32,000 bases of DNA. Source: Edaphobacter aggregans. GTDB taxonomy: Bacteria; Acidobacteriota; Terriglobia; Terriglobales; Acidobacteriaceae. The DNA lies in assembly GCF_003945235.1 (NCBI RefSeq), contig NZ_RSDW01000001.1, forward strand, positions 5,940,001 to 5,972,000, read 5' to 3'. The translations under genes and the position numbers were made by a program. The notes under the pieces were generated by a model, which saw only the letters and a program-made list of their open reading frames with translations, did no database searches and was not told where the DNA came from. This document shows positions 2,805-8,400 of the stretch, piece after piece; the stretch's first letter is position 1, and the number at the start of each line of letters is the position of its first letter.

Positions 2805-3400
2805 GCAATCCCCTCCATGCCGAGCTTCAAGCGGGCGCGCATGTTGGTAAGCAACCAGGCGCCGGGTTCCTCTTCGCGGATAAGCCACTCAAGAGTGGTT
2901 GCCATGTAGATGGCGAAGAGTGTCTCGGCAATGAGCTGAGGGGTGGCGGCGTTGCGGCGTGGAATGCGCTTGATGGCACTACTGAGTATGTTGATTGCTT
3001 CCTTGCGAGCCGCCATCATGGGGCCGTTAGTGACCTGCTGGAACCAGAGGCTGAGTAGCAGGCGTCGCGATTTGGCCGCGATCCGCGTGTTTTCGTCAGT
3101 TATGTCGAGAAAGAGTGCGATCACATCGTCGAATGTGAGCCTGTGACTGCCTTCACCGAATTGAGAGACGATTGTCTTCAGTTTTTCGACGCGGGTGCTG
3201 GCGATTTCACGAAGTATCAACTCCTTTTGCGGGAAGTAGTTGAAGAAGGTCGCTCGCGAGATGCCGACTGTGTCGCAGATCATCTCGACGGAGACGTCTT
3301 CGTATCCGTGAGCGGCGAAGAGTTCGAAGGCGACCCGGACGATCTCTGTTCGCGTGTAATGTTTCTGCTTTTCGCGCAACGAAAGTGTACTACGAACCAT
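2801..3400 (-). CDS. TetR/AcrR family transcriptional regulator
   Basis: 199-aa ORF with an N-terminal TetR-type HTH (GYEDVSVEMICDTVGISRATFFNYFPQKE). It is the first gene of the efflux operon, and a palindromic operator lies 3 nt upstream of its ATG. Confidence 0.9.
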   Translation of the reverse strand: MVRSTLSLREKQKHYTRTEIVRVAFELFAAHGYEDVSVEMICDTVGISRATFFNYFPQKELILREIASTRVEKLKTIVSQFGEGSHRLTFDDVIALFLDITDENTRIAAKSRRLLLSLWFQQVTNGPMMAARKEAINILSSAIKRIPRRNAATPQLIAETLFAIYMATTLEWLIREEEPGAWLLTNMRARLKLGMEGIA

Positions 3401-3749
3401 AACTTGGACTATAGTCCAACAATTCTCTATTCGTCAAAATTCTCTCTCCCTTCATCAAGAGATGCGGTAACCGAAGGGTAAACGTTTCTTGGCTCCATGC
3501 AATCCATATTGGTCGTGCAGCTATTCTCAGCTTCATCAGGTTACTAACGACATACTGATCCAGGTAGATGATTTTCTTGTGCAGCTTTGGCAGCGCGAAG
3601 CGATTCACCATGTCCCAGCAGTCCCGGCACAGTCTCGAATTGCTGTTACCGCTGATTGTGAGAACGCCAAGGGTTTCGTGCCCACACTTCGGGCAGGTCT
3701 TATACGGCGGCGAGATGAAGTCCCTGGGGTTGAACCTCGTTTCTGTCAT
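3390..3749 (-). CDS. Hypothetical zinc-ribbon protein, probably a 5' gene fragment (3'-truncated)
   Basis: From the internal ATG at 3749 the ORF reads MTETRFNPRDFISPPYKTCPKCGHETLGVL...LCRDCWDMV...KKIIYLDQYVVSNLMKL, with a CxxC...CxxC zinc ribbon. After about residue 70 the codons turn rare (aga, ata, cga). The reading frame then runs through the TetR operator and into the TetR start codon. The 69 residues upstream in the track ORF (start 3956) are not protein-like. Confidence 0.4.
   Translation of the reverse strand: MTETRFNPRDFISPPYKTCPKCGHETLGVLTISGNSNSRLCRDCWDMVNRFALPKLHKKIIYLDQYVVSNLMKLRIAARPIWIAWSQETFTLRLPHLLMKGERILTNRELLDYSPSYGS
3404..3419. promoter_or_regulatory. Perfect 16-bp palindrome TTGGACTATAGTCCAA, probable TetR operator
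   Basis: Read directly: the sequence at 3404-3419 equals its own reverse complement. It sits immediately upstream of the TetR start codon (3400), the usual place for an autoregulatory TetR operator. Confidence 0.6.
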
Positions 3750-3816
3750 TCTGGGGCTCTTTGGATAGCAGCTTGTCCGTAAAACTGTTTTCGATATTGG
3801 ACACTGTGAATTTATT

Positions 3817-3842
3817 TGTCCGATAATGTATGGTCCGCCGCT
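3817..3842 (+). repeat. IS end motif, copy A (TGTCCGATAATGTATGGTCCGCCGCT)
   Basis: Read directly. It shares TGTCCG, TAATG and the 13-nt core ATGGTCCGCCGCT with copy C in inverted orientation, and CCGATAAT / GGTCC / CCG / CGCT with copy B. Confidence 0.7.
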
Positions 3843-4072
3843 TGACTGCAAGGGTGAGTTTGGTCGAGAGACAAGTCTGCGGCAAGGTATTCGGCCTTTT
3901 GATGGAGCCGCGTGCTCCTGGCCAGGATGAGTTCCGCTGCGTATCCGTCCTAACAAGCCGAGCGGTCGGTGGGACCATTATCGGAAACAGGCTTCAGACA
4001 CGCCTTTTTGACTGTTCTTTCGTCTGTACTGTTCCTGTGCAGACTTCGTGGAAAGCTTATTTCTGCGATGTC
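3843..4072 (-). ncRNA. Candidate bridge/seek RNA region in the non-coding tail of the IS
   Basis: About 230 nt between the transposase stop and the terminal repeat has no credible ORF. It contains an internal copy of the end motif (3984-3961). It also has long-range complementarity (AAGTCTGC 4046-4039 with GCAGACTT 3880-3873) and a local hairpin GGAGC-ACGCG-GCTCC (3918-3904). The assignment rests on family knowledge; the extent and even the side of the gene are uncertain. Confidence 0.35.
3961..3984 (-). repeat. IS end motif, internal copy B (CCGATAATGGTCCCACCGACCGCT)
   Basis: Read directly on the minus strand. It is inverted relative to copy A, 118 nt away, so the transcript could pair B with the complement of A (blocks of 8+3+3+5 bp). 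Confidence 0.6.
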
Positions 4073-5104
4073 TTATGCCGCTGCTGTGTTGACAGCGGGT
4101 CTGTAATCTTCACCAGTCGACAGGACGGCCCATGCGATACGTGCGATCTTGTTGGCCATGGCCACGACCATCACGTTGCGTGGTGCTCTGGCTTCCAGTG
4201 CGTTCATCCATGCTCCGATCGGGAAGCGATCTCGCTTGATACGCATCGCCGCGGCGCGTGCGCCATGTATCAGGATCTTGCGCAGATAGATGTTGCCGCG
4301 CTTGCTGATGCCCAGCAGTCTGGCCCTGCCACCGGTCGAATACTGTCGCGGTACGAGGCCGAGCCATGCAGCAAAGTCTCGTCCCTTGCGGAAGGCTGCA
4401 CCGTTGCCGATGGCTGCCACGATAGCCGTCGCAACGATAGGCCCGATACCCGGTATCTGCCGAATACGGCGGCAAGCTGCGTCGCTATCGGCAATCTGTT
4501 CGAGCCTGTCGGTCAGTTCTTCAATCTGCTCTTCAACGGTCTTCCACTCGTCCCACAGGATACCAATGAGGTGGCGCATCATCGGAGTTAGCGCGTTGTC
4601 TGCGTTCTCGAGAACATCGGCCATAGCGGCCCTTAGCTTCGCCGGCTTCTGAGCAAACACCATACCGCGTTCTAGCAGGAAAGCTCTGATCTGGTTGATG
4701 ACTGCTGTTCGTCGCGATACCAGCCGATCACGAATCCGATGCATCGCCTGGAGATCGAGCTGGTCGTCCGTCTTGATCGGAACAAAGCGCATGTTCTTGC
4801 GCTCGACGGCTTCGGCTATGGCTTCCGCATCGACGAAGTCGTTCTTGTTGGACTTCACAAACGGCTTCACGAACTGCGCCGCGATCAGCCGCACGTCATG
4901 ACCCTGCTGCCGCAACGCTCGACCAAGAAAATGTGCACCGGAGCAGGCTTCCAGACCGATCAGAGAAGTCTGCAGGTTCGCCGTGAATGCCAGCAGCTGC
5001 TTCTGTGAAAACTTCTTCTTCACCAGCACCTTGCCCGATGCTCCCAGTGCGACAAAGTGAAACGTCGTCTTGCCCAGGTCAATGCCTACCGAACGTATCT
5101 GCAT
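4073..5104 (-). CDS. IS110 family transposase (DEDD recombinase)
   Basis: 343-aa ORF. The N-terminus MQIRSVGIDLGKTTFHFVALG...GLEACSGAHF...NDFVDAEAIAEA is RuvC-like DEDD. The C-terminus IPGIGPIVATAIVAAIGNGAAF...GLVPRQYSTGGRARLLGISKRGNIYLRKILIHGA is the helix-hairpin-helix / catalytic Ser region. RBS GAGGAGG lies 9 nt upstream of the ATG. Confidence 0.93.
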   Translation of the reverse strand: MQIRSVGIDLGKTTFHFVALGASGKVLVKKKFSQKQLLAFTANLQTSLIGLEACSGAHFLGRALRQQGHDVRLIAAQFVKPFVKSNKNDFVDAEAIAEAVERKNMRFVPIKTDDQLDLQAMHRIRDRLVSRRTAVINQIRAFLLERGMVFAQKPAKLRAAMADVLENADNALTPMMRHLIGILWDEWKTVEEQIEELTDRLEQIADSDAACRRIRQIPGIGPIVATAIVAAIGNGAAFRKGRDFAAWLGLVPRQYSTGGRARLLGISKRGNIYLRKILIHGARAAAMRIKRDRFPIGAWMNALEARAPRNVMVVAMANKIARIAWAVLSTGEDYRPAVNTAAA

Positions 5105-5161
5105 GTCGATGATCCTCCTCTGAAACCGCTGCTACTATCCTCCGCCTCAGCGGAGGGTTAC

Positions 5162-5197
5162 AGCGGCGGACCATCTCATTAGCCGACTATACGGACA
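5162..5197 (-). repeat. IS end motif, copy C (TGTCCGTATAGTCGGCTAATGAGATGGTCCGCCGCT)
   Basis: Read directly on the minus strand, 58-93 nt upstream of the transposase ATG. The 13-nt core is identical to copy A. Confidence 0.7.
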
Positions 5198-5417
5198 TAT
5201 GAACCTCCCGGCGGGCAACATCGTAAATACATCTGGCGCAACTATTCCTAGTCGGCACACCTGAATCGGAAACCCTCTCCCCCCTGATGTTGTGATACCC
5301 CCTGGTTCAAAACCGTCGGCAATTTCGGGGAAGCTACAACTTTTGGGGTACTGATCATTCATAGTGTGAGAAAACCGTTGGAATCACTTAAGTTTCAGTT
5401 AGAATCCGTTCGAACAT

Positions 5418-8400
5418 ATGAAGACCTGGTTACTGTCCCCCATTCGTCTTGGGCTCTATTGCGTTATTTTCTGCCTTGCAATTGTTGGATGTGGAGGCCC
5501 TGGCTCTTCACAGAACAGTTCGCCTCCGGTGGTTCCCCTCGCTATCCAGTCGATCACGCCGAGTAGCGTTCCGGTGGGAAGCGCGCCGCTTACAATTACG
5601 ATTTCAGGTACCGGCTTTACGACGTCGAGTCTCGTCACCGTGAACGGTACACAGGTGCCAACGGTGTACGTTAGCGCTGCGCAGTTGCAAGCAACGATCC
5701 CGGCCGGCCAGATTGCATCCGGTACCCAATTGCAGGTCGGAGTTGCCAATGGCGCTGGTAGCGCAACCGGGACGACCGTCACTCTGGTTGTCGATAATCC
5801 GGCGCCCGTGCTCCAAGGCGTTGCTCCTTCCACGATTGTTGCAGGCACATCGAGTGCGAGCCTGACGCTAACGGGCAGTGGCTTTGTTCCAACTTCTATC
5901 GCCAGCTTTAACGGGAGCACCAGGACGACCACGTTCACAAACGGGACACAGGTCACTGTATCTCTGACAGCCGCCGACCTGGCTGTCGCCGCAAACGCGA
6001 CCATTACGGTTACAAATTCTGCGCCTGGCGGTGGTACGTCGTCAGGGCAACAGTTGAACATCGTGAATCCGTTGCCGACGCTCAAGTTTGTCTCCCCCTC
6101 GAGCATTCCTGCGGGAAGTCAGGCAACCTCAATCGATATTGTAGGCACCAATTTTCTGCCGACGGCCATCGTATTCTGGAATAACACCACTCTGACGTCG
6201 ACATATATTAGTTCCACTGAGCTTAATGCGACGGTGCCAGCAACATCGCTCGCGACAGGAGCAACGGCTTCGGTTACTGTCGCGAACCCGGTGCCGGGAG
6301 GTGGCGTTTCTGCCCCGTTCAATCTTTCGGTCGTCAGTCCGAAGCCGGTACTCAACTCCATTCTGCCGGGGAACGTTTCTACCGGCAGCGCTTCAGCGAC
6401 GATTAATCTGACTGGATCTGGCTTCGAAACAAACTCAGTCGTTCAGTGGAATGGGTCTGCCCGGCCGACGACCTTCGTCAGCATGACGTCGCTGCAGGTG
6501 ACCCTTTCGTCGGCTGATCTGATGAACAGTGGCACGGGAAAGCTAACAGTCACGAATCCTGTACCCGGCGGAGGGTCAAGCTCCGCTAGCACACTGAACA
6601 TCACCTCTTTCCCGATACCTGCTATTCAAGCGATCACACTCTCGGCCCAAGCCGCGGCGGGATGCTCGACTATCCAGGCAACGATTACTGGGACTAACCT
6701 GGCGTCCGGGGACACCGTTCAGCTCAACGGTGTCTCTCTGAGGGCGAGCCAGATCTACGTCCCTACCGCTAACAATTATGGACTGCTCGTCTCGCTGCCT
6801 GCTTCGGCGATCCCCCAATCGGGGCCGCTCAACTTCACCGTGTCGAATAACTTCTTTTCGCCAGCCGTATCGGATCCATATACGCTTCCAGTTACTACCC
6901 CAGCAATCGTGGCGCTCTGCTCGTCGCCTGCGCCTGCAAACGTCTATGCAAACACAAGCTTCACGGTCTCTCTCACCGCGGCGGAGATCAATTCGACTAT
7001 AGTGCCGACCGTCTCGCTTGGCGCACTTCCCATTGGGATCACACTTACCTCTCCGGGGTGGATCTCCATCCCGACATCAGGGGTCGCGCTGACCTTCATG
7101 GCGTCGGCGAGTGTCGTACCTGGTACTTACTCGATTCCCATCACCGGCCAGGCCGGTTCACTCTCCCTCACTGGCTCTATTTCGTTGAACGTCCAGTCCG
7201 GCTTGCCGCCAAACTTTTTCTTCAGCCAACCCTTGTTCAGGGAACTCGGCGTGCCGATCGGAGGTTCGAATCAAATACAGTTCAATGCAATCGCTAATGG
7301 AGCTGATTACAACATCGTTCCGTCGATCAGCGGGCTTCCACCGGGAACGACTGCGACCGTTACACCATCGACCATCATTCCTGGCCAGTCGGTCACCGTG
7401 GTCATCACTGCCTCTTCAACGGCCCCTGCGAGTCGGAACGTTAGTGTAACGCTGACAGGCACACCGGTAGTGCCGGTTTCATCCTCACAGATCGCCTTCC
7501 TCGTTGATGTCACCCCCGCCCCCGGCTCGCTCCCAGGCAATCGTACCGACTTCGTCTCGATTGGTGGAACGCCGTACTCGGTGGTCTATGACCGGCCTAT
7601 GAACTTGATCTTCGCGAGCAATCCGTCATGGAACCGGATCGATATCATTTCGAACAAGACTCATCTACTCCAGCAGAGTATCGCCGTACGAGGACCGCAG
7701 GCGCTCGATGTCTCTCAAGATGGATCGACATTGTGGATCGGTACAAATTCACAGCAGGTCTTTGCGATGGACACGACGACTTTCGCCTTGACACGATACC
7801 AGCTGCCGCCTATTTCAGGGGGTAGCTGGGAGGATAATCAGTTACTGGCTCTGGCAGACGGTACGCTGCTGCTGGATGTATCTCCGGCAGCGGGGGATGG
7901 AATTTGGATCAATGCAGTCTGGACGCCGGGAACAAACCAAGTGACGGTGCTAGGGTCCACAGATTATTTCAATCTGCGAAGCGGGGACGGCACCAAGGCG
8001 TATGGCACTACCTATGCCTCCGGCTACACATCCGTCGTCTATAGTGTTGCGACCAAAGCATTGACGAACCTGCCTTTGATTGGCCAAGGGTACAACCTTG
8101 TTGCGGTGAACCAAGATGGTTCGCGACTCGTTGGCGGTGACAATGGCCTCTACGACGGCTCAGCGCAGCCGATAGGCAAGCTGCCGGCGTACTTGAGCAG
8201 TTTTTCCTTTCCGGAGTATGGCGCGACTGTGTTCAGTCCTGATGGAACGACGCTCTATCAGATCGCTTCCGGAGGAGGTTCATTTATCGCGACGATCGAT
8301 GTTGCGAGCCTCTCCTTGAAGGGGCTTGCTCCCGCTCTGGCGACGCTGCCGAATGGAGTGAGTGAAACTCCCGTCGAAACCAGCGGTGTGAGTGTGGACA

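What the first reader, a model, noticed from the sequence alone, without database searches (positions are those of the whole stretch)
3843..4072. 230-nt ORF-free tail downstream of the transposase with long-range pairing potential
In the minus-strand transcript I see three kinds of pairing:
- Copy B (3984-3961) can pair with the complement of copy A (3842-3817) in blocks of 8+3+3+5 bp: CCGAUAAU/AUUAUCGG, GGU/ACC, CCG/CGG, CCGCU/AGCGG.
- AAGUCUGC (4046-4039) can pair with GCAGACUU (3880-3873), enclosing about 160 nt.
- There are local hairpins at GGAGC-ACGCG-GCUCC (3918-3904) and an alternative CCUGG/CCAGG palindrome (3926-3917), plus a direct repeat GAACAGU at 4033-4027 and 4017-4011.

No protein-like ORF covers the region. 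This is much more structure than a plain 3' UTR needs. It is the location where IS1111-type elements are reported to carry their guide RNA.
Basis: partly seen in the sequence, partly recalled or inferred. Interest (0 to 1): 0.6.

Follow-up and report, generated by a model that had tools for sequence, protein, structure and literature searches.

The report
Insertion sequence's own guide RNA gene
The non-coding stretch behind the transposase gene is the guide ("bridge" or "seek") RNA gene of an IS1111-type insertion sequence, a kind of RNA-guided mobile element described in 2024, so it is a clear but ordinary new example from a soil Acidobacterium.

Summary
The tail (window 3843-4072, minus strand) lies inside a 1355-bp IS110-family element of the IS1111 group (about 5181-3827). 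The element has an intact 343-aa DEDD transposase, perfect 13-bp subterminal inverted repeats and a 246-nt 3' non-coding region.

In 61 distinct homologous tails, a 174-nt RNA (4046-3873) folds into an outer stem, a small 5' hairpin and two stem-loops that each carry an internal loop. 97% of cells are paired, 14 pairs show compensatory changes, and slid controls give 31-37%.

The four loop strands behave as guides:
- 3987-3977 is complementary to the right flank.
- 3963-3952 copies the left flank.
- 3933-3924 is complementary to the left IS end.
- 3892-3883 copies the right IS end.

Guide and flank covary across loci (0 of 10,000 permutations reach the observed match). A covariance model built from these tails finds the same RNA behind the transposase of IS4321, where the loops read out the known Tn21-IR target.

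Its long-range "copy B/copy A" helix is really guide-target complementarity, and the CCUGG/CCAGG palindrome is not conserved. The insertion site is a REP-like palindrome. This is a new member of a known kind, of modest interest. Expression was not tested.

The parts
3827..5181 (-). Whole insertion sequence (1355 bp), IS110 family, IS1111 group. It is single-copy in this genome.
   Evidence: Homology to paralogues and relatives runs from about 5188 to 3825. The ends were set by the family rule of 7 bp left and 3 bp right of the subterminal repeats (PMC11187229, introduction). The left extension TAATGAG is identical to that of IS4321.
4073..5104 (-). Transposase gene, 343 aa, intact.
   Evidence: Pfam DEDD_Tnp_IS110 and Transposase_20. 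NCBIfam NF033542 'IS110 family RNA-guided transposase', 340 bits over the full length. GLVPRQYSTG motif. 42-46% identity to IS4321/IS5075 transposases.
5162..5174 (-). Left subterminal inverted repeat (ATGGTCCGCCGCT), preceded by the 7-bp extension TAATGAG (5181-5175).
   Evidence: Perfect 13-nt inverted repeat with 3830-3842 (I3). Conserved in more than 60 loci.
3830..3842 (-). Right subterminal inverted repeat (AGCGGCGGACCAT), followed by the 3-bp extension ACA (3829-3827).
3873..4046 (-). Core of the bridge/seekRNA gene, enclosed by the outer stem 4046-4041 / 3878-3873.
   Evidence: RNAalifold consensus. Pair counts of 97.2% paired and 14 compensatory pairs. MFE of the core recovers the same helices.
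3939..4003 (-). Target-binding stem-loop: outer stem 4003-3996/3946-3939 and 3991-3989/3951-3949, an internal loop, and the terminal hairpin 3976-3973/3967-3964.
   Evidence: Helices 3, 4 and 5. Seven of the eight outer-stem pairs have compensatory changes.
3977..3987 (-). Right target guide (5' strand of the target loop, UUUCCGAUAAU). [quoted passage not shown]
   Evidence: It varies between paralogues in step with their flanks.
3952..3963 (-). Left target guide (3' strand of the target loop, GCUCGGCUUGUU). It has the same sense as the left flank GTCGGC plus TT, so it pairs with the bottom strand.
3879..3937 (-). Donor-binding stem-loop: outer stem 3937-3934/3882-3879, an internal loop, GGCC/GGCC 3923-3920/3896-3893, and the terminal hairpin 3918-3915/3907-3904.
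   Evidence: Helices 6, 7 and 8. Pair 3934/3882 is C-G in 38 sequences, G-C in 16 and U-A in 1.
3924..3933 (-). Right donor guide (AACUCAUCCU). CUCAU is complementary to ATGAG of the left IS end.
   Evidence: Where the left end reads ATGGA, the guide reads UCCAU (the L075 group, and L103)..
3883..3892 (-). Left donor guide (GAAUACCUUG). It has the same sense as the right IS end CATACA plus TT. This copy carries a unique C at 3886.
   Evidence: The guide reads AUACA, AUAGA or AUCUA where the right-end extension is ACA, AGA or CTA.
5182..5188 (-). Left half of the insertion target (AGTCGGC).
3817..3826 (-). Right half of the insertion target (TTATCGGACA). Together with the left half it gives GTCGGC^TTATCGGACA inside a REP-like palindrome.
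3846..3851 (-). TTGCAG, a likely -35 box of a promoter completed only in the circular form. After a 17-nt spacer, CA|TAAT forms across the right-end/left-end junction.
   Evidence: Read from the sequence. The motif is conserved in all tails, and IS4321 has the same geometry. The promoter function is inferred. PMC11187229 (section 8) mentions such a junction promoter.

Best explanation
The tail is the gene for the guide RNA (bridge RNA, or seekRNA) of an IS1111-group insertion sequence.

The RNA is read in the same sense as the transposase. An outer stem encloses two stem-loops, each with an internal loop.

[quoted passage not shown] The two matches overlap at a TT next to the insertion point. 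This loop picks the target: GTCGGC^TTATCGGACA, in the loop of a REP-like palindrome.

[quoted passage not shown] This loop recognises the element's own joined ends in the excised circle.

The DEDD transposase bound to this RNA then recombines circle and target.

What is shown here: the IS anatomy, the RNA secondary structure by covariation, guide/flank and guide/end covariation, and homology of the RNA to the 3' region of IS4321.

What is inferred from the published systems (ISEc11, ISKpn4, ISPa11, IS621): transcription and processing of the RNA, its binding to the transposase, the circular intermediate with a junction promoter, and the strand-exchange chemistry.
For: - **Transposase family and motif:**
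- **Repeats and tail:** 13-bp perfect subterminal repeats, and a 246-nt region 3' of the transposase gene that lies inside the IS.
- **Structure:** across 61 distinct tails from Acidobacteriaceae, 36 pairs are 97.2% paired and 14 have compensatory change. The covariation score is 0.200 against 0.105 in shuffles (0 of 500 reach it). With partners slid by 1-3 columns, only 31-37% are paired.
- **Strand:** about 73 G-U cells lie on the transposase-sense strand, against about 17 C-A cells counted at three pairs. This favours an RNA of that sense.
- **Guide versus flank:** over 48 distinct guide pairs, the mean longest match of a guide to its own flank is 5.6 nt (left) and 5.7 nt (right), against 3.8 and 3.45 for other loci's flanks. 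No permutation out of 10,000 reaches this.
- **Paralogues in this genome** change guide and flank together: CCGAUAAUG/CATTATCGG against CUGAUAAUG/CATTACCAG, and UCGGCU/TCGGCT against CCGACU/CCGACT and CCCGUU/CCCGTT.
- **Donor loop:** CUCAU goes with a left end ATGAG and UCCAU with ATGGA. AUACA, AUAGA and AUCUA go with right-end extensions ACA, AGA and CTA.
- **IS4321:** model R1 hits directly behind the transposase of IS4321 (73.9 bits), of three other enterobacterial IS1111-type elements and of Bradyrhizobium elements. In IS4321 the two target-loop strands spell TTTCCGTTTT and TATTTTC. Both match the two flanks abutted around the insertion point, CTTTATT^TTCCGTTTTCTGAG. I recognise this as the Tn21-family terminal repeat.
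- **Order of guides:** the top-strand match comes 5' of the bottom-strand match, and the two overlap. This is the IS1111 order reported in PMC11187229 (section 9). PMC11208160 (section 12) places IS1111 bridge RNAs in the right end.
Against: - No expression data: nothing here shows that the RNA is made, processed or bound by the transposase.
- Rfam has no matching family.
- No orthologous empty site was found in 40 relatives. The exact ends rest on the family rule and on the REP-like family's spacing, and the position of the crossover within the TT/TA is not resolved.
- The register of the right target guide relative to the insertion point shifts by about 1 nt between subgroups.
- This copy is single in the genome. 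It has a unique A-to-C change in the left donor guide (3886) and one mismatch in the left target guide, so it may be weakly active or inactive.
- The loci are related, so the permutation and shuffle figures overstate independence.
Confidence: 0.9

Rival explanations
1. The RNA gene is genuine by descent, but this copy is a decaying, immobile relic whose guide RNA no longer works.
For: It is single-copy, and the nearest paralogue is only 80-88% identical. It has a unique C at 3886 in the left donor guide, where all 60 other tails have A or T. One mismatch separates the left target guide (CUCGGC) from the flank (GTCGGC).
Against: The transposase ORF is intact and 94% identical to its best relative. 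The inverted repeats are perfect. All helices are intact in this copy. The right target guide matches its flank over 8-9 nt.
Confidence: 0.25
2. The reader's long-range helix (3984-3961 with 3842-3817) forms in read-through transcripts of the integrated copy and has a role of its own, for example masking the guide or marking the right junction for excision.
For: The whole-tail MFE uses this pairing. Complementarity between the guide and the right junction is inherent to any integrated copy. The title of a 2026 preprint (10.64898/2026.08.31.748434, listed) speaks of half-match recombination in excision. I did not read it.
Against: Outside the guide-target block, the variable positions pair in only 2/67, 10/67 and 20/67 homologues, and the competing local stem covaries. 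The partner strand lies outside the element, so selection on the IS cannot maintain it except through target choice.
Confidence: 0.08
3. The tail is conserved only as DNA (transposase-binding right end), or is a plain 3' UTR/terminator with no RNA function.
For: The last roughly 45 bp (the TTGCAG box and the inverted repeat) are DNA signals. No terminator or promoter call stands out.
Against: Fourteen base pairs have compensatory changes and there is a G-U excess on one strand. The loop strands track flanking DNA that differs between loci. A DNA-binding site or a UTR does not predict either.
Confidence: 0.03

Closest known systems
seekRNA of IS1111-family insertion sequences (ISEc11, ISKpn4, ISPa11, ISPst6; Siddiquee et al. 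2024, PMC11187229)
   Same: Both are encoded in the long non-coding region downstream of the transposase gene. Both belong to elements with 11-13 bp subterminal repeats and a transposase of 330-350 aa. In both, the top-strand match lies 5' of the bottom-strand match, the two matches overlap at the insertion point, and the targets are often palindromic repeats (REP, attC).
   Different: The host is an Acidobacterium, and the target is a different, REP-like palindrome. No biochemical data exist for this element. Both a target loop and a donor loop are resolved here by comparison. The sections of the seekRNA paper that I read (8 and 9) describe only the target matches.
IS4321 / IS5075 (IS1111 group; they insert in Tn21-family terminal repeats)
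   Same: The left extension TAATGAG is identical, the sTIR-plus-3-bp layout is the same, and TTGCA-N17 precedes the junction in both. The transposases are 42-43% identical. The RNA model R1 hits the IS4321 3' region at 73.9 bits, with the same helices and loop positions.
   Different: The guides, the right-end extension (AGA against ACA) and the target differ. The IS4321 outer stem and donor stem fit the model less well.
IS621 bridge RNA (IS110 group; Durrant et al. 2024, PMC11208160; structures 8WT6-8WT9)
   Same: Both have two internal loops, one for the target and one for the donor. Each loop pairs with staggered stretches of both DNA strands, and the matches overlap at the core. The recombinase is homologous (E = 8.6e-15 to the IS621 transposase chain, C-terminal part).
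   Different: In IS621 the RNA lies 5' of the recombinase, in the left end, and the 5' strand of each loop pairs with the bottom strand. Here the RNA lies 3', in the right end, and the strand order is reversed. IS621 has only 2-3-bp subterminal repeats.

Membership tests
IS110 family, IS1111 group (element) | DEDD (RuvC-like) transposase with Pfam PF01548 and PF02371, 330-350 aa | tested here: met
   343 aa. PF01548 E = 2.6e-22 and PF02371 E = 1.1e-24. NF033542 at 340 bits against a cut-off of 140.
IS110 family, IS1111 group (element) | C-terminal GL-P----S/TG motif | tested here: met
   GLVPRQYSTG in the translation. The motif is as given in PMC11187229, section 6.
IS110 family, IS1111 group (element) | Subterminal inverted repeats of about 11-13 bp, with asymmetric extensions (7 bp left, 3 bp right) | tested here: met
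   Perfect 13-bp repeat at 5174-5162 and 3842-3830. Conservation across loci stops about 7 bp and 3-4 bp outside the repeats. The left extension is identical to that of IS4321.
IS110 family, IS1111 group (element) | Longer non-coding region downstream of the transposase gene | tested here: met
   246 nt 3' of the gene (4072-3827) against 77 nt 5' of it (5181-5105).
IS110 family, IS1111 group (element) | Site-specific insertion: copies of one IS lie in the same short sequence, with no long target duplication | tested here: inconclusive
   This IS is single-copy. In relatives, copies of one IS share a site (L043/L047/L048; L020/L021; L062-L064). There are exceptions (L046). No orthologous empty site was found.
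Bridge RNA / seekRNA | Conserved structured RNA with internal loops in the non-coding end | tested here: met
   97.2% of cells paired, 14 compensatory pairs, controls at 31-37%. RNAalifold finds 11 covarying pairs independently.
Bridge RNA / seekRNA | [quoted passage not shown] | tested here: met
   3987-3977 against the right flank, and 3963-3952 against the left flank. The permutation test gives 0 of 10,000. The order is as in PMC11187229, section 9.
Bridge RNA / seekRNA | Second loop complementary to the element's own joined ends (donor) | tested here: met
   The CUCAU/ATGAG to UCCAU/ATGGA switch, and AUACA, AUAGA or AUCUA with right-end extensions ACA, AGA or CTA. There are few independent changes, because the ends are strongly conserved.
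Bridge RNA / seekRNA | The RNA is transcribed, co-purifies with the transposase and is required for transposition | not testable with these tools
   No transcript or biochemical data are available here.
Bridge RNA / seekRNA | Homology of the RNA to that of named IS1111 elements | tested here: met
   Model R1 hits IS4321 at 73.9 bits (E about 1e-19), L104 at 71.8, L103 at 53.4, L105 at 33.5 and Bradyrhizobium elements at 83-86 bits. All hits lie directly 3' of the transposase gene. None of these hits is confirmed to be one of the experimentally studied seekRNAs.
Rfam families | Match to any curated covariance model | tested here: not met
   No hit at E <= 10 in window 3300-5600.

The most novel reading that the evidence does not exclude
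One genome holds at least six diverged lineages of this IS. Their target loops may have been re-tuned to different sequence variants of a single REP-like palindrome family (GTCGGC-TT-ATCGGA, GCCGAC-TT-ACCAGG, GCCGAC-TA-TTCGKCC, CCCCGT-TT-TCAGGG). That would be natural guide diversification partitioning a repeat family among competing elements. The window copy's unique donor-guide change might mark a step towards immobilisation.
Probability: 0.3. Interest if true: 0.4.

Novelty: new member of a known kind. Interest (0 to 1): 0.25.

Why it matters
It adds a cleanly resolved IS1111-type bridge/seekRNA from Acidobacteriaceae, with both the target loop and the donor loop assigned by comparison. It also shows that one covariance model spans IS1111 elements from Acidobacteria to IS4321/IS5075 on enterobacterial plasmids. 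Rfam returned no match for this region. In practice, the roughly 175 nt after the transposase gene of such elements should be annotated as an RNA gene, and the element's target can be read from two loop strands. It does not change the understanding of the mechanism.

Tried and rejected
- **Rfam scan** of 3300-5600 at E <= 10: nothing.
It is dominated by pairing between the guide and the flank.
- **Search for an orthologous empty site** in 40 relatives with 3.2 kb around the IS. Only the TetR side is conserved, so the ends could not be fixed by an empty site.
- **A fixed 2-nt 'TA' or 'TT' core duplicated at both junctions:** no single register fits all subgroups. I therefore state only that the crossover lies at the T(T/A) next to the ends.
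- **RNAalifold** missed the target-loop inner hairpin and the donor-loop outer stem. I added them by hand and tested them with pair counts.
- **Promoter/terminator scan** of the tail: nothing above shuffled expectation.

Full report
**What is there.** The minus-strand ORF 5104-4073 encodes a 343-aa protein. It carries both Pfam domains of IS110-family transposases. It matches NCBIfam NF033542, "IS110 family RNA-guided transposase", over its full length at 340 bits, and it contains GLVPRQYSTG, the GL-P----S/TG motif of IS1111-type enzymes (motif as in PMC11187229). A perfect 13-nt inverted repeat sits at 5174-5162 and 3842-3830.

Diverged paralogues in the same genome, and relatives elsewhere, are homologous from about 5188 to about 3825. 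With the family rule of 7 bp left and 3 bp right of the subterminal repeats (PMC11187229 introduction), the IS is 5181-3827, or 1355 bp. Its left extension, TAATGAG, is identical to that of IS4321. The element is single-copy here, and the closest paralogue is 80-88% identical. By the titles of the nearest records, the host is an Acidobacteriaceae of the Edaphobacter/Tunturiibacter/Granulicella kind.

**Comparative material.** A scan of genome contigs with the transposase returned 80 loci. Together with six paralogous tails from the window's own genome, these gave 67 distinct tails including the right end and 61 distinct 192-nt cores (alignment A1). The first roughly 25 nt after the stop codon are not conserved. 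Conservation starts near 4050.

**RNA structure.** RNAalifold on A1 finds five helices:
- the outer stem;
- a small 5' hairpin;
- a long stem with many compensatory changes;
- the GGCC/GGCC stem;
- the GGAG hairpin.

I added two helices seen by eye: the GGUC/GACC hairpin, and the GCGS/SCGC stem that closes the second loop. I then counted all 36 pairs. 97.2% of cells are standard pairs. Fourteen pairs have a change on both sides, covering 126 cells. The covariation score is 0.200 against 0.105 for shuffles, and none of 500 shuffles reaches it. When the 3' partners are slid by 1-3 columns, only 31-37% pair.

G-U cells (about 73) outnumber the C-A cells counted at three pairs (about 17). This favours an RNA in the sense of the transposase. 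The single-sequence MFE of the 181-nt core recovers the same helices (z = -2.45).

In window coordinates (minus strand), the helices are:

| Helix | 5' side | 3' side |
|---|---|---|
| Outer stem | 4046-4041 | 3878-3873 |
| 5' hairpin | 4024-4022 | 4012-4010 |
| Target stem-loop, outer stem (first part) | 4003-3996 | 3946-3939 |
| Target stem-loop, outer stem (second part) | 3991-3989 | 3951-3949 |
| Target stem-loop, tip | 3976-3973 | 3967-3964 |
| Donor stem-loop, outer stem | 3937-3934 | 3882-3879 |
| Donor stem-loop, GGCC/GGCC | 3923-3920 | 3896-3893 |
| Donor stem-loop, tip | 3918-3915 | 3907-3904 |

**The loops are guides.** Each stem-loop has an internal loop whose two strands are the variable parts of the alignment.

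In the first loop, the 5' strand (3987-3977, UUUCCGAUAAU) is the reverse complement of the right junction ...TTATCGGA (3826-3819). The 3' strand (3963-3952, GCUCGGCUUGUU) repeats the left flank GTCGGC followed by TT. The paralogues change guide and flank together:
- B has CUGAUAAUG with CATTACCAG, and CCGACU with GCCGACT.
- C has CCCGUU with CCCCGTT.
- F has the guide sense AATTCGTCC with ATTCGTCC.

Over 48 distinct guide pairs, the mean longest exact match of a guide to its own flank is 5.6 nt (left) and 5.7 nt (right). Against other loci's flanks it is 3.8 and 3.45 nt. No permutation out of 10,000 reaches the observed values. The loci are related, so this is an association and not 48 independent events. 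Within one left-guide class, the right guide still matches its own flank better (5.50 against 4.75, and 4.71 against 3.55).

The top-strand match lies 5' of the bottom-strand match, and the two overlap at TT. This is the order reported for IS1111 seekRNAs (PMC11187229 section 9). [quoted passage not shown]

In the second loop, the 5' strand (3933-3924, AACUCAUCCU) contains CUCAU, the complement of ATGAG in the left end. The 3' strand (3892-3883) repeats the right end. These ends hardly vary, but where they do, the guides follow:
- The L075 group and L103 have a left end ATGGAATGG and the guide ...UUCCAU...
- The right-end extension ACA goes with the guide AUACA (this family), AGA with AUAGA (IS4321, L104, L105, Bradyrhizobium), and CTA with AUCUA (L103).

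This is the donor-binding loop of the bridge-RNA model.

**Link to named elements.** A covariance model built from A1 with this structure (R1) finds full-length matches immediately 3' of the transposase gene in several elements:

| Element | Score (bits) |
|---|---|
| IS4321 (L102) | 73.9 |
| Enterobacterial IS1111-type, L104 | 71.8 |
| Enterobacterial IS1111-type, L103 | 53.4 |
| Enterobacterial IS1111-type, L105 | 33.5 |
| Bradyrhizobium elements | 83-86 |

In IS4321 the first-loop strands read UAAAACGGAAA, whose complement is TTTCCGTTTT, and UAUAUUUUCUG, which contains TATTTTC. Both match the sequence around the insertion point CTTTATT^TTCCGTTTTCTGAG in that plasmid. I recognise this from memory as the Tn21-family terminal repeat, the long-known IS4321 target. 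The match shows that the loop assignment made on the acidobacterial family holds in a well-studied member.

**Target.** Abutting the flanks gives ...TGTCCGTATAGTCGGC^TTATCGGACA... The arms TGTCCG and CGGACA are complementary, so the IS sits in the loop of a palindrome. The genome holds a family of similar elements, with consensus near CCGAATAGTCGGCTTTCCGGACAAGTG. There are 25 copies within 6 mismatches. They have the same 4-nt spacing between GTCGGC and CGGACA, and several lie next to other copies of this IS family. Insertion into REP-like palindromes is typical of IS110/IS1111 elements (references in PMC11208160). No orthologous empty site exists among 40 relatives. I also could not fit one fixed 2-nt core to all subgroups. 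The exact crossover within T(T/A) therefore stays open.

- The long-range stem AAGUCUGC/GCAGACUU and the GGAGC hairpin are confirmed and covary.
- The CCUGG/CCAGG palindrome is not maintained.
- In the 'copy B / copy A' helix, the 8-bp block is the right target guide meeting its own target in the flank. The GGU and CCG(C) blocks involve invariant columns of the inverted repeat. The variable positions pair in 2, 10 and 20 of 67 sequences, while GGUC pairs locally with GACC with compensatory changes.

**Other signals.** TTGCAG (3851-3846) is conserved in all tails. A 17-nt spacer follows, and then CA|TAAT across the joined ends. IS4321 has TTGCAA-N17-GA|TAAT. This fits the promoter that forms only in the circular intermediate, as mentioned in PMC11187229 section 8. 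Its function here is inferred.

**Caveats.** Nothing here shows expression or activity. This copy has a unique C at 3886 in the left donor guide, where all 60 other tails have A or T. It also has a mismatch at the outer end of the left target guide, and it is single-copy, so it may be sluggish or dead. Rfam has no family for it.

**Verdict.** The tail is the bridge/seekRNA gene of a previously unnamed IS1111-group element, so it is a new member of a known kind.

Noticed in passing
window 3886 (minus strand, in the left donor guide 3892-3883): This copy reads GAAUACCUUG, where the other 60 distinct tails have A (59) or T (1) at this position. The base faces the last base of the right-end extension (ACA), so it may weaken self-recognition.
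   Followed up: partly
own genome G000:C1, e.g. 5298538, 5298659, 5302529, 5306800, 5345607, 5348023, 4763139, 5829013; window about 5249-5275: There is a family of REP-like palindromes (about CACTTGG-CCGAATAGTCGGCTTTCCGGACAAGTG), with 25 copies within 6 mismatches of a 27-mer. Several cluster around other copies of this IS family. A further inverted GCCGACTA-containing copy lies about 60 nt upstream of the IS left end in the window.
   Followed up: partly
own genome: 5304186-5305609, 156530-157851, 5341740-5342895, 5696083-5777, 5625899-5626124, 4836131-4836246, and left-end fragments at 5554845, 5852545, 5622259, 191646: The genome holds at least six diverged tails and several left-end-only fragments of the same IS family (68-88% identity). 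They are concentrated between 5.30 and 5.85 Mb, and each has different target-loop sequences.
   Followed up: partly
L046 compared with L043/L047/L048 (same MAG, identical tails): Three copies sit in CACTTGGRCGGCTTGCCRAC^TTCTCGTCCAAGTG, as the guides predict. The fourth (L046) has a matching left half but a different right half (TTATCGTTACGG). This may be a half-matched or off-target insertion.
   Followed up: no
window 3390-3956 (-) and 3700-3978 (-): Two mechanical ORFs start inside the IS tail and run out across the right end into the flank. The first has no Pfam hit. Any real gene on this side would begin only beyond the IS end.
   Followed up: no
window 3846-3851 plus the joined ends 3828-3827 | 5181-5178: TTGCAG-N17-CA|TAAT would form a sigma-70-like promoter only when the two ends are joined in a circle. 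IS4321 has the same geometry (L102 1818-1843 and 516-519).
   Followed up: partly
window 2900-3419: The TetR-regulator side of the insertion has a 90% identical counterpart in one relative (G021) and an 84% identical paralogue in the own genome (5093962-5094488). The 400 bp between it and the IS, and the left-flank side, were not found in the 40 relatives searched.
   Followed up: no
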